Positions 7,656-41,899 of a DNA stretch of 47,657 nucleotides are shown piece by piece. The DNA comes from a virus (Duplodnaviria; Caudoviricetes). The notes below the pieces were generated by a model. That model was not told where the DNA came from. It did not search any database and saw only the letters and a list, made by a program, of their open reading frames with translations. Numbering within the stretch: the first letter of the stretch is position 1; each line of letters begins with the position of its first letter. The DNA lies in the IMG/VR virus record IMGVR_UViG_3300043416_000191, positions 1-47,657 of that record; one strand, written 5' to 3'. Both the position numbers and the translations under genes were made by a program.

Positions 7656-8234
7656 TTAAGGCATATCAGGCCAAACTCTATTACCTTTAGCTTGGTTTTC
7701 TTTAGCTGTAAGTATTTGTAAATTAGCTTCACAATGTAGGCCACAAACAAGTTTAGATTGTAATGGTACTATATGATCCACATGATAAATAATATTTGAG
7801 CTACTTAAATCAATTGCCTGTCTGTATATGTTATTTATTGCTTTTTCACATGCCCATAATGGCATACATCTTTTTTCTGTGATTCTTCTTTTTGAATCAT
7901 AAGACTTAACCTTGTCTTTATTGTCCTTTTTCCAATCTCTTGCTTTTAAGAGATTTTCTTCTAAATTTAAGTAATGGCTTTTTTGCCTATAATCTTTACA
8001 ATGCTCCTTATTTCTTTCTCTCCATTCTGTTCTATTTCTAGCAACTCTATCAGGATTATTTATCTTTGCTAATTTACTAGATTCTTTAGCTTTTTCAGGA
8101 TTTCTTTTTTTGTAATCTGCTGATCTTTTAGCTTCGCATGATTTACATCTATAAAATAATCCATCAAAATATCTTTTAGATTTAGGAAAATCGCTTAATA
8201 TTTTTATTTCATTACATTTAGAACAAGTTTTCAT
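7656..8234 (-). CDS. HNH homing endonuclease with N-terminal Zn-finger
   Basis: KTCSKC...CKSC at the N-terminus; YHVDHIVPLQ...VCGLHCEANLQILTA.EN..KGN at the C-terminus. Inserted between sheath and tube. Confidence 0.9.
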   Translation of the reverse strand: MKTCSKCNEIKILSDFPKSKRYFDGLFYRCKSCEAKRSADYKKRNPEKAKESSKLAKINNPDRVARNRTEWRERNKEHCKDYRQKSHYLNLEENLLKARDWKKDNKDKVKSYDSKRRITEKRCMPLWACEKAINNIYRQAIDLSSSNIIYHVDHIVPLQSKLVCGLHCEANLQILTAKENQAKGNRVWPDMP

Positions 8235-8240
8235 TATCTA

Positions 8241-8320
8241 CCCCTACAGTAAATCCCTAATAAAAAGTTGAGGTCAATCAGTTAGGGGCTGATTTTCGGA
8301 AGCGATCCTAGACCTCAAGT
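8241..8320 (-). ncRNA. Putative structured leader RNA (three-way junction plus pseudoknot) upstream of HNH gene
   Basis: Minus strand: UUGAGGUC-UA-GGA(ucgcu)UCC-GAA-AAUCAG(ccccuaa)CUGAUU-GACCUCAA. The loop is complementary to downstream UUAGGG and to the SD-region UAGGGG. Confidence 0.65.
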
Positions 8321-26585: not shown

Positions 26586-26798
26586 TTAATATCTCAACAA
26601 AGAACTTCTATGCTCCCACTCCGCAGCACACTCTTTATCACAGAACCTCGATACAACGCCACCACGCTCCAATACTTTTTCACCGCAGTGTAGGCATGAC
26701 CCAGTACCATTTATATCCACCACCACGCCTCTTGCCGCTCTTATATGACCTTCTAACCACTTCTCTGCTTGCTCATTACCCGAATCTATCTCATCCAA
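26586..26798 (-). CDS. TraR/DksA-like C4 zinc-finger protein
   Basis: D.ID..NE at the N-terminus and CLHCGE...RFCDKEC. Confidence 0.65.
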   Translation of the reverse strand: MDEIDSGNEQAEKWLEGHIRAARGVVVDINGTGSCLHCGEKVLERGGVVSRFCDKECAAEWEHRSSLLRY

Positions 26799-27024
26799 TT
26801 AACTCATCCTCTCTGCACATATCTTGATACCTCTCCAACGTATCCATTGCCTCCTGCACATCTTGTTCCATATCCTTTGCCCCTCTACCTCCAGCACACA
26901 ACAACTTCTTTATTGCATGTTGCAAACACGGATCTGTAACTTCAAACAACTCCAATACTCTATACACATCAACTGCATCTAAATGCACTGTCTTTTTAAA
27001 ATAATGATTGTATGTATTTTTCAT
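26791..27024 (-). CDS. DUF3310-like phage protein
   Basis: HY.K...DVYRVL..F.V.DPCLQHAIKKLLCAG.RG.KD..QD..EA. Probable start MKNTY at 27024 overlaps the HNH stop. Confidence 0.65.
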   Translation of the reverse strand: MKNTYNHYFKKTVHLDAVDVYRVLELFEVTDPCLQHAIKKLLCAGGRGAKDMEQDVQEAMDTLERYQDMCREDELIG

Positions 27025-27518
27025 GCGGCTTTCTCTTCCCAAAATGGATGATACCTTCTTTTAGCAGCCAAATAAACTTCAGATGCTTCTTCTGGAGTAT
27101 TGTAAGAACCTAAAAATTTAGATTTTCCACTTATTTTTATTGTTGCTCTCCAGTTTTTATTTGGTTTACTCCAACTAACACCTTTAAACCCCGATGTGTT
27201 GTCTATATTTGGTTTTGATATATTTTGTGAATTTTGTTTTGCTGTAACTAATCTTAAATTAATTATACGATTATCATCTTTAATTTCATTAATATGATCT
27301 ATTTGTAAAATAGAAAAATAACCATACATATAAAACCAAGCCAACCTATGTGCAAAATAACGTTTATAATCAAAAGTTATCTGAATATACCCTTCAGGAC
27401 GTTTATAGCCAACAGCATCCCCAATTAAACCTCCACCACGTCTTTTCGTAAGATTGGTAAAAACACCAGTTTCTGGGTCGTAAGATAATAATTCTTTTAA
27501 ACGTTCTTGTGTAAGCAT
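27021..27518 (-). CDS. HNH endonuclease with C-terminal AP2 DNA-binding domain
   Basis: LTQERLKELLSYDPETG, AHRLAW.Y, IDHIN..KDDNR..NLR and NTSGFKGVSW...W.A.I...LG.Y motifs. Confidence 0.92.
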   Translation of the reverse strand: MLTQERLKELLSYDPETGVFTNLTKRRGGGLIGDAVGYKRPEGYIQITFDYKRYFAHRLAWFYMYGYFSILQIDHINEIKDDNRIINLRLVTAKQNSQNISKPNIDNTSGFKGVSWSKPNKNWRATIKISGKSKFLGSYNTPEEASEVYLAAKRRYHPFWEEKAA

Positions 27519-27612
27519 TTTGAAAATTCCTTTAGCATAGAATTATTAAGCGAAAAGTTATGTGGCAACCTTGCTTAAGGGTGTTCATCTTCGATTGACT
27601 AGCCACAACTTA
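27512..27612 (-). ncRNA. Putative structured leader RNA (three-way junction plus pseudoknot) upstream of HNH-AP2 gene
   Basis: Minus strand: AAGUUGUGGC-UAG-UCAAUC(gaa)GAUGA-ACAC-CCU(uaagca)AGG-UU-GCCACAUAACUU. The loop is complementary to downstream GCUUAA and to UGCUUA overlapping the AUG. Confidence 0.62.
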
Positions 27613-27621
27613 ATTATACCA
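27613..27621 (-). promoter_or_regulatory. Extended -10 promoter (TGgTATAAT) of the HNH-AP2 cassette
   Basis: Perfect TGnTATAAT immediately before the structured leader. Confidence 0.65.
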
Positions 27622-27627
27622 TATTTT

Positions 27628-27765
27628 TTACAGTTGCATTGCTTGTATAAATGCTTTAACTCTTATTGTATTTTTAACTAATTCAATAAATTTATCTAAT
27701 TCTTCATCACTAGGTTTTTTATTCATCTTCTCTGCCATTAAATAAAAGTATTCTTCATCAGTCAT
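27628..27765 (-). CDS. Hypothetical 45-aa protein (not in ORF track)
   Basis: MTDEEYFYLMAEKMNKKPSDEELDKFIELVKNTIRVKAFIQAMQL. Confidence 0.45.
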   Translation of the reverse strand: MTDEEYFYLMAEKMNKKPSDEELDKFIELVKNTIRVKAFIQAMQL

Positions 27766-27972
27766 TATCATCACCATTCACGATACATTTTATACCAAAT
27801 CCATGTCACTACAAAATACCCTATTCCAATCCAACCAATTATTTCCAAGACCACAAGCATTTTACAACCCCTATAAAAAATATAAACATTCCAATCACAA
27901 AAGCAATTGGCATTAAGTACCAGTTAGTCATCCTTCTTTTCATAATTCCTCATAAAATCATCATTTTTATGT

Positions 27973-30801: not shown

Positions 30802-30996
30802 TTAGCCCCGATGTTCTATGATAGGCATCTCAACAGCTTTCAGTTCTCCGTTCGTTATTTTCTCAATCTGAATGGCTCTATTAGCTGGAATAATTCCCAA
30901 TTTAAGCCATTCACCTACAGCTTGACGACTGACACCAAGCCGCAATGCCATCCTTCTCTGATTACCAAAGTGTTTAATAATTAATTCTGTATTCAT
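30802..30996 (-). CDS. Cro/YdaS-like HTH regulator
   Basis: HFGNQRRMALRLGVSRQAVGEW...IPANRAIQIEKIT.G. Confidence 0.85.
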   Translation of the reverse strand: MNTELIIKHFGNQRRMALRLGVSRQAVGEWLKLGIIPANRAIQIEKITNGELKAVEMPIIEHRG

Positions 30997-41169: not shown

Positions 41170-41334
41170 ATGATGAATGATGCAGAAAAGTTAACATATG
41201 ACGCACTTTTGACGGCGTTGAGACTGTCAGAGACGAGCGCAAAAGGGTATCACCTAGATAAGCTAGAAAAGTTTGTAGGGGTGGTTAACATTAGAATCCA
41301 TAAAGCCATACCAGAAGGATGGGAGATACCATGA
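41170..41334 (+). CDS. Hypothetical 54-aa protein (not in ORF track)
   Basis: MMNDAEKLTYDALLTALRLSETSAKGYHLDKLEKFVGVVNIRIHKAIPEGWEIP. The second copy differs mainly at synonymous sites, which supports coding. Confidence 0.65.
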   Translation: MMNDAEKLTYDALLTALRLSETSAKGYHLDKLEKFVGVVNIRIHKAIPEGWEIP

Positions 41335-41498
41335 CTGACGAGCAATTACTAGAATATCGTAATACACAACTACTTGGATTACGAGAAGAAAATAGAAAGT
41401 TACGAGAAGATTTACGAGAAGGTTTACGAGAAGAAATATCCTTACGTGACGCAACGAACGATGGCTTAATTACTTCTGCTGATGCATCTAAAACGTGA
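41331..41498 (+). pseudogene. Small gene apparently truncated at its SLRD motif by the captured insert
   Basis: MTDEQLLEY...LREENRKLREDLREGLREEISLRD then runs into foreign sequence. TTACGAGAAG repeats at 41379, 41400, 41412 and 41424. Confidence 0.5.
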
Positions 41499-41596
41499 TT
41501 TTGAAAGAGGGAAAATAGATCAAGCCACTTGTAAGGTGATTTTCTTAGTAGGCCATAGTAAAGGTTATAACCATCAACATAAACAATTGTACGCAT
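41465..41596 (-). pseudogene. 5' fragment (~44 codons) of a NYN/LabA-DUF88 PIN-like RNase gene
   Basis: MRTIVYVDGYNLYYGLL..SPYKWLDL is the NYN N-terminal signature. Similarity ends near SAEVIK, where the frame runs into antisense phage sequence. Confidence 0.8.
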
Positions 41597-41615
41597 TTAC
41601 TTTGTTAGATACCTA

Positions 41616-41693
41616 AAATGACAAAGCCGCCCGAAGGCGGCCTGTCGCCCCAAGAGCGAACCGGAAATCCGGACGGTCAAGGGGGGAGTCGTG
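41616..41693 (-). ncRNA. Putative structured small RNA ending in a terminator-like hairpin, upstream of the NYN fragment
   Basis: GC-rich. CCCC/GGGG stem, CCGGA-UU-UCCGG inverted repeat, then GACAGGCCGCC-UUCG-GGCGGCUUUGUC-AUUUU. Confidence 0.6.
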
Positions 41694-41698
41694 GCTAT

Positions 41699-41727
41699 AG
41701 TTTAGATAAAAATGTGATGACATGCAA
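41699..41727 (-). promoter_or_regulatory. Sigma70 promoter, antisense to the surrounding phage operon
   Basis: TTGCAT-17 nt-TAAACT on the minus strand. Confidence 0.65.
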
Positions 41728-41899
41728 GATAGAGGACTAAATTATCACTAGAGGACTTATGACTGTCAGAGACCAGCGCAAAAGGGTATCACCTAGATAA
41801 GCTAGAAAAGTTTGTAGGGGTGGTCAATATTAGACTCCATAAAGCACTGCCAAAAGGCTGGGAAATACCATGCGATTAATAACCCTTTTGGGGATGAAG

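What the first reader, a model, noticed from the sequence alone, without database searches (positions are those of the whole stretch)
27510..27625. HNH-AP2 cassette 2 has the same RNA architecture with a different loop and matching different targets
Seen (minus strand): extended -10 TGgTATAAT, then P1 (AAGU)UGUGGC/GCCACA(UAACUU), UAG, P2 UCAAUC-gaa-GAUGA, and P3 CCU/AGG around (U)UAAGCA. The loop is complementary to GCUUAA just 3' of P1 (27551-27546) and to UGCUUA overlapping the start codon (27517-27512). Loop and both targets all differ from cassette 1, yet complementarity is retained. The shared core is P1-CUAG-P2-GAA-P3-UUG-P1'. Both -10 boxes lie about 10 nt after the stop codon of the upstream gene. 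The two proteins are different HNH subtypes, so the RNA module is not a simple duplication. Inference: a conserved cis-regulatory RNA family of phage nuclease cassettes, possibly undescribed.
Basis: partly seen in the sequence, partly recalled or inferred. Interest (0 to 1): 0.76.

Follow-up and report, generated by a model that had tools for sequence, protein, structure and literature searches.

The report
Mobile nuclease's two-target leader RNA
A small RNA leader, a divergent relative of a catalogued but unexplained phage RNA family (int-alpA), is present or absent together with the DNA-cutting gene behind it, and its loop matches two downstream sites, one over the ribosome-binding site, so it likely limits how much nuclease is made.

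Summary
The element is real but is not an undescribed family. Cassette 1 scores above the Rfam int-alpA cut-off (39.9 vs 35.8 bits). Cassette 2 does not (no hit). Its siblings with the same P1 core and P3 but another P2 score significantly below the cut-off, so it is a divergent int-alpA relative.

One correction: the conserved second target lies over the Shine-Dalgarno (27537-27529), not at the start codon, where the match is at background level family-wide (7 of 58).

Promoter, RNA and HNH gene come and go as a unit: 32 related loci have the empty junction, and the RNA never appeared without a nuclease gene. The family is not nuclease-specific (20 of 59 downstream genes). The likely mechanism is a loop that pairs either with a decoy site or with the ribosome-binding site; this is untested. 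The scan noted this family and the loop idea before on other DNA (three reports).

The parts
27628..27777 (-). upstream gene A (49 aa, unknown function); in relatives without the cassette its stop overlaps the start of gene B
27613..27621 (-). extended -10 promoter-like box, part of the cassette; predicts +1 at about 27606, the first G of P1
   Evidence: sequence; a -10 at this spacing in 29 of 63 leaders vs 2-9 in control windows; activity untested; not listed by the -35/-10 scanner
27561..27607 (-). three-way-junction core, divergent int-alpA relative: P1 27607-27602 with 27566-27561, UA, P2 27599-27587, GAACA 27586-27582, P3 and loop 27581-27569, UU
27569..27581 (-). P3 and its loop, the specificity arm; predicted to close to a 4-bp stem with a 4-nt loop that a target would have to invade
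27546..27551 (-). target T1 (proximal, decoy-like site), 15 nt from the junction G of P1'; perfect 6-bp match, -6.3 kcal/mol; unchanged in all 8 leader variants with this P3
27529..27537 (-). target T2 over the Shine-Dalgarno; 8 of 9 pairs here (-9.3 kcal/mol if P3 opens), 9 of 9 in L001 (-13.4)
27021..27518 (-). HNH endonuclease gene with AP2-like C-terminal domain, 165 aa, intact frame
   Evidence: Pfam HNH_3 E 2.6e-14, AP2 E 3.9e-5 below cut-off; phrog_99 E 1.9e-68
26791..27024 (-). downstream gene B (phrog_2452, unknown function), start overlapping the HNH stop
8255..8318 (-). cassette 1 leader, Rfam int-alpA RF02996; -10 at 8328-8323, T1 8260-8255, T2 8246-8241
   Evidence: 39.9 bits, cut-off 35.8, E 3.1e-7
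7656..8234 (-). cassette 1 endonuclease gene (endonuclease VII-like HNH), between the DUF3383 gene and the gp32-like gene

Best explanation
This is a promoter-leader-nuclease cassette that is present or absent as one unit, and its leader, a divergent int-alpA relative, likely throttles translation of the HNH gene by pairing one loop either with a nearby decoy site or with the ribosome-binding site. Shown from sequence: two complementary sites at fixed spacing, which use the same loop bases and change with the loop across the family; empty insertion sites lack both RNA and gene. Inferred: the transcript starts at P1; T1 is transcribed about 13 nt before T2 and would capture the loop first, leaving the Shine-Dalgarno open; refolding onto T2 (stronger in this subfamily, by displacing the 3' strand of P3) would close it. 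The net effect would be a capped amount of a potentially harmful protein per transcript. What tips the balance is unknown; the invariant CUAG and GAA(A/C)A junction bases may bind a factor.
For: Two WC sites of at least 5 nt in 48 of 64 leaders vs 3.9% of 3708 loop swaps, 11.9% of shuffles and 1 of 64 upstream. Duplex at or below -6 kcal/mol: T1 window 50 of 58, SD window 44 of 58, start and coding windows 7 of 58 each. T1 starts 13-17 nt from the junction in 47 of 55, with no correlation to P1 length; it is 15 nt in both cassettes here. T2 ends 7.3 +/- 2.9 nt before the ATG, and T1 and T2 share at least 4 loop bases in 35 of 37. P1 begins within 2 nt of the predicted +1 in 24 of 29 leaders with a -10. 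Core pairs hold in 93% of cells with many double changes (alignment fitted to the model). Empty sites: 32 loci join gene A to gene B by overlapping stop and start; all 10 loci with the RNA have the HNH gene right behind it, at three different positions; cassette 1 site empty in 77 of 79 informative loci. Hairpins that hide the RBS are an established way to restrain T4-type homing endonucleases (PMC2988022, passages).
Against: No expression or structure data. Cassette 2 folds no better than shuffles, and the family register is 4.2 kcal/mol above the predicted minimum. T2 has a central mismatch here and varies at that position among siblings. Family-wide, T2 is not stronger than T1 (25 vs 28, 10 ties), so a timer is not general. 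SD-window matches are partly generic (23.6% of swaps; cognate in the top 5% for only 27 of 58). T1 offset does not track P3 length (rho -0.14, p 0.32), so the geometry does not prove cis action, and fixed spacing could be inherited. Sequence alone cannot separate cis from trans.
Confidence: 0.6

Rival explanations
1. The core is released as a short RNA of about 50 nt (by termination or processing) and binds T1 and T2 in trans, like the C4 antisense RNA of phages P1 and P7, giving dose-dependent, loop-specific silencing of any incoming or resident cassette with the same targets.
For: Variable loops with matching targets recall C4, where loop changes set specificity (PMC5320573, passages). The Rfam consensus has a U-run after P1. 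Two near-identical sites could each bind one copy. The four co-resident pairs seen (window, L491, L328, L208) have different loops, and cross-pairing in this genome is weaker (-5.5 and -3.3 vs -9.3 and -10.1).
Against: Only 19 of 63 leaders have 5 or more U in the 8 nt after P1; no terminator was called here. C4 uses two loops on two different sites; here one loop has two copies of one site. With 51 loop types in 64 leaders, different loops in four pairs are expected by chance. No Rfam C4 hit.
Confidence: 0.2
2. The loop-T1 pseudoknot is the only functional pairing (a compact 5' cap that stabilises the mRNA or presents the RBS), and T2 is a leftover duplication of T1 that serves as Shine-Dalgarno.
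For: T1 is the more strictly kept partner (50 vs 44 of 58; unchanged in 8 of 8 variants while T2 varies). The RNA sits at the predicted 5' end of the transcript.
Against: T2 matches extend into loop-specific bases beyond the purine run and change with the loop; SD-window mean -8.1 vs -4.7 kcal/mol for swaps.
Confidence: 0.12
3. Cassette 2 is a decaying copy: the family is functional, but this leader no longer folds or regulates.
For: No Rfam hit; 9.4 and 14.4 bits with my models, E 2.3 and 0.14; P2 opens with a G-U pair; mismatch in T2.
Against: The same P2 variant is kept in L001, L438, L449 and L450 at three different loci. The leader is 99% identical between the window and L452 while the HNH proteins are 56% identical.
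Confidence: 0.08

Closest known systems
int-alpA RNA motif, Rfam RF02996 (attribution to Weinberg et al. 2017, PMC5737381, is recalled and given in earlier scan notes; the name is absent from the main text and the supplement could not be read)
   Same: P1-UA-P2-GAAAA-P3-YU-P1' architecture, invariant CUAG, U-rich tail; cassette 1 passes the cut-off; 14 hits over the cut-off in 13 of 20 relatives tested, among them L246 with a cassette-2-type loop.
   Different: Cassette 2 is below detection by the Rfam model: G-U-opened P2, GAACA, short P3. The Rfam structure line shows no loop-target pairing and the model ends before T2.
C4 antisense RNA of phages P1/P7 (listed as RF01695 in PMC2864571)
   Same: Small multi-stem phage RNA whose variable loop is complementary to targets that include a ribosome-binding site (PMC5320573, passages).
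   Different: C4 is about 77 nt, processed by RNase P, and uses two loops in trans; here one loop, two copies of one target in the same leader, and a 5' end likely set by the promoter. No score to C4 models.
RBS-sequestering hairpins of T4-type homing endonucleases (I-TevI, segB, mobE)
   Same: Translational restraint of a nuclease gene by hiding the Shine-Dalgarno, with a promoter just upstream (PMC2988022, passages).
   Different: Those are simple hairpins that form only on read-through transcripts. Here the whole core lies within the promoter's own predicted transcript, and P1 extends more than 2 nt upstream of +1 in only 4 of 29.
HEARO RNA (HNH endonuclease-associated RNA; features recalled, paper seen as a search listing only, PMC9755519)
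   Same: Structured RNA linked to an HNH gene.
   Different: No Rfam match to it at either cassette; this RNA is about 50 nt and mostly precedes non-nuclease genes.

Membership tests
int-alpA RNA (RF02996) | score at or above the gathering cut-off of 35.8 bits, cassette 2 | tested here: not met
   no int-alpA hit at E up to 10 in 251 nt; sibling L434 with the same P3 scores 25.8 bits, E 0.0011
int-alpA RNA (RF02996) | score at or above the gathering cut-off, cassette 1 | tested here: met
   39.9 bits, E 3.1e-7; missed by the fast filters
int-alpA RNA (RF02996) | three-way junction P1/P2/P3 with CUAG, GAA(A/C)A and YUG in register | tested here: met
   all present in cassette 2; aligned in register by model R2
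int-alpA RNA (RF02996) | significant homology by a model built without this sequence | tested here: inconclusive
   cassette 2 itself E 2.3 (R1) and 0.14 (R2, second hit in the window); siblings that differ mainly in P2: E 2.5e-4 (L176), 1e-3 (L434), 0.023 (L418)
C4 antisense RNA | match to the Rfam C4 models | tested here: not met
C4 antisense RNA | two loops that bind two different sites | tested here: not met
   one loop; T1 and T2 share at least 4 loop bases in 35 of 37
C4 antisense RNA | processed small RNA acting in trans | not testable with these tools
   needs RNA data
T4-type read-through hairpin control | the repressing structure needs sequence upstream of the proximal promoter's +1 | tested here: not met
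   P1 starts within 2 nt of the predicted +1 in 24 of 29; +1 is predicted, not mapped
HNH homing-type endonuclease (phrog_99 / HNH_3) | HNH_3 domain above cut-off; optional presence at a site that is empty in relatives | tested here: met
   cleavage activity not tested

The most novel reading that the evidence does not exclude
int-alpA RNAs are a widespread, reprogrammable class of phage translation switches: a fixed three-way-junction scaffold at the very 5' end of the message carries an interchangeable loop that toggles between a decoy at a fixed 15-nt register and the ribosome-binding site. Selfish nucleases of several unrelated families have captured it, with its promoter, as a portable expression module, and cassette 2 belongs to a subfamily that Rfam mostly misses and that works by strand displacement of P3.
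Probability: 0.45. Interest if true: 0.68.

Novelty: new variant of a known kind. Interest (0 to 1): 0.45.

Why it matters
If true, an orphan Rfam family gets a concrete and cheaply testable mechanism, and there is an answer to how free-standing nucleases outside T4-like phages limit their own expression wherever they insert: they bring a promoter and a built-in brake. A 50-nt scaffold whose specificity is set by a 5-9 nt loop is also a candidate for orthogonal translation switches. The family itself is catalogued and this scan has flagged the loop-target idea before, which lowers the surprise. What this locus adds is the low-scoring subfamily, the empty-site evidence that promoter, RNA and gene move together, the fixed register of T1, and the alignment of P1 with the predicted transcription start.

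Tried and rejected
Start codon as second target: rejected (7 of 58, the same as the coding control; absent from 7 of 7 sibling variants; the same hexamer near the start of 2 of 58 HNH relatives, L030 and L049, where no leader was seen).

Nuclease-specific family: rejected.

Read-through sensor by extension of P1 upstream of +1: rejected as a family rule (4 of 29).

Correlation of T1 distance with P3 length as proof of cis geometry: none. The strong linker-versus-P1 correlation in that call is arithmetic and is not used.

Orthogonal loops in co-resident copies: four pairs, not informative.

Whole-window Rfam scans missed even cassette 1, so their blanks carry no weight.

The genome contigs pattern scan gave 7 matches, none with a closing P1 by eye. 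The metagenome scan returned 120 of about 410 stretches; 5 looked like true leaders by eye (L323, L324, L328, L347, L418).

No RNA holder was listed. No close annotated phage covers the cassette. No earlier scan note on this genome or sequence.

Literature searches listed no paper on int-alpA RNA function. The two papers with the term use it in a table (PMC12370729, passages) or for a gene order (PMC13612085, passage). The Weinberg 2017 supplement could not be read and may already describe the loop-target pairing.

Full report
Setting. The window is a complete 47,657-base virus record with head, tail, primase, polymerase, helicase and endolysin genes. It has two optional nuclease genes on the minus strand: 7656-8234 (endonuclease VII-like) and 27021-27518 (HNH_3 with an AP2-like tail). 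They are not significantly similar.

Observation. Folding alone gives cassette 2 no support (z +0.42 and -0.46), while cassette 1 folds better than shuffles (z -2.37 for the 68-nt piece). Relatives fix the register: P1 (27607-27602 with 27566-27561), UA, P2 GUC/GAU, GAACA, P3, UU. Eight leader variants share this P3; they carry four different P2 stems in the same register.

Identity. A local Rfam scan scores cassette 1 as int-alpA, RF02996, at 39.9 bits against a cut-off of 35.8; whole-window scans missed it. Cassette 2 gives no int-alpA hit. Of 20 relatives picked by my descriptor, 13 had hits over the cut-off, 3 had hits under it and 4 had none; one of those 4 (L277) holds a copy of cassette 1, so the filters lose true members. 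L246, with a cassette-2-type loop, passes at 37.9 bits. L434, which differs from cassette 2 mainly in P2, scores 25.8 bits, E 0.0011. A model from 12 passing members (R1) scores cassette 2 at E 2.3 but its siblings L176, L434 and L418 at E 2.5e-4, 1e-3 and 0.023. A wider model without those siblings (R2) ranks cassette 2 second in the window at E 0.14. Cassette 2 is therefore a divergent relative that fails the formal threshold, and I do not file it as a by-score member.

Loop and targets. I collected leaders with patterns that fixed the core or the loop but never the targets (searches stopped at 120 of about 1300 and about 410 stretches), plus those found beside HNH relatives. After dropping two rows by hand as reverse-strand chance matches (L250, L289), 106 hits collapsed to 64 non-redundant leaders with 51 distinct loops. 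One further chance row (L299) stayed and was dropped. At least one site of 5 or more WC pairs lies in the 70 nt downstream in 59 of 64, and two sites in 48 of 64; controls gave 27.1% and 3.9% (swapped loops), 48.4% and 11.9% (shuffles), and 9 and 1 of 64 (upstream). These rows are related, so the counts are not independent events. Among 58 leaders with an assignable ATG, duplexes at or below -6 kcal/mol occur in the proximal window in 50, the SD window in 44, the start window in 7 and a coding control in 7; swaps gave 11.9%, 23.6% and 8.2% for the first three. In cassette 2 the conserved second site is 27537-27529, over the Shine-Dalgarno, with one central mismatch (-9.3 kcal/mol if P3 opens, -6.2 for the loop alone); L001 has the perfect site (-13.4) and no start-codon match.

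Geometry. T1 starts 13-17 nt from the junction in 47 of 55 leaders (search range 6-25), with no correlation to P1 or P3 length; it is 15 nt in both cassettes here. In 37 leaders with both sites, T2 starts 28.3 +/- 2.2 nt from the junction and ends 7.3 +/- 2.9 nt before the ATG, and the two sites share at least 4 loop bases in 35, so one loop cannot hold both. A -10-like hexamer lies 9-16 nt before the C of CUAG in 29 of 63 leaders, against 2, 4, 9 and 3 in control windows, and P1 begins within 2 nt of the predicted +1 in 24 of those 29. The +1 rule (7 nt after the hexamer) is general knowledge, not mapped here.

Mobility. Of 80 loci with gene B, 32 have gene A directly upstream with overlapping stop and start (24 distinct junctions), and 4 have A-RNA-HNH-B as in the window. 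In 6 more the RNA and HNH sit after B, at two other positions. All 10 loci with the RNA have the HNH gene right behind it. A model scan of the 32 joined loci plus L452 found the RNA only in the four loci with the cassette. For cassette 1, 77 of 79 informative loci are empty (17 distinct junctions), one has RNA and HNH, and one has an HNH gene without the motif. Many of these contigs are near-duplicates. The leader is better conserved than its gene: 99% DNA identity beside 55-56% protein identity. The same P3 heads a different nuclease type in L418, and related loops head phrog_314 homing endonucleases.

Against nuclease specificity. Of 59 downstream genes, 20 are nucleases, 7 replication or primosomal proteins, 4 Rha or antirepressor proteins, 1 each ParB, helicase and tail chaperone, 3 unknown families, and 22 without a hit at E 1e-8; the nuclease share is inflated by how I seeded the search. 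Only 5 of 61 scanned relatives of this HNH carry the leader.

Mechanism. The best reading is translational control in cis: T1 appears first and would capture the loop, leaving the RBS open; pairing with T2 would close it. In this subfamily T2 is the stronger site, but family-wide the two are even (25, 28, 10 ties), so a balance is as likely as a timer. A C4-like short RNA acting in trans is the main rival; U-runs are mostly weak (19 of 63) and no terminator was called. None of this has been tested at the bench.

Literature. PMC5737381: four passages seen, the name int-alpA absent from the main text, supplement unreadable; it may bear on novelty. PMC2988022, PMC5320573, PMC2864571, PMC12370729 and PMC13612085: passages only. 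Eight searches listed nothing on the function of this RNA; the library lacks most subscription papers. Three earlier scan reports reached the same family and the loop-RBS idea on other genomes; they are not independent support.

Verdict. Real feature, divergent variant of a known but unexplained family; interest 0.45.

Noticed in passing
L002, L003, L005, L008, L010, L012, L022, L032, L033, L042, L050, L068, L074, L076, about 100 nt upstream of the HNH match: A second, different leader recurs before HNH-AP2 relatives: a -10-like box, one long hairpin and a short conserved tail (14 loci by eye). No significant Rfam match for L022 (best E 0.57).
   Followed up: partly
L491:570-621 and L491:1892-1945; L473:2376-2428: One contig carries two leader-HNH cassettes with different loops and matching different targets; the second loop type also occurs in L473.
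   Followed up: partly
L328:89-140 (-): An int-alpA-like core with only a proximal target and no obvious gene start close behind, 800 nt from a complete leader.
   Followed up: no
L208:168-236 and L208:297-364: Two int-alpA copies in tandem, both over the Rfam cut-off, ahead of an antirepressor-like gene.
   Followed up: no
L593, junction upstream of 1301: An HNH gene like that of cassette 1 at the same junction without the RNA motif.
   Followed up: no
window 30869-30913: A self-complementary stretch that scores weakly on both strands with my RNA models; it lies within the 64-aa ORF 30802-30996 between the primase and exonuclease genes.
   Followed up: no
window 41291-41870: A reverse-oriented ORF whose first 35 residues match phrog_7929 and whose remainder looks out of frame, amid small early-type genes; possibly a broken insertion.
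   Followed up: no
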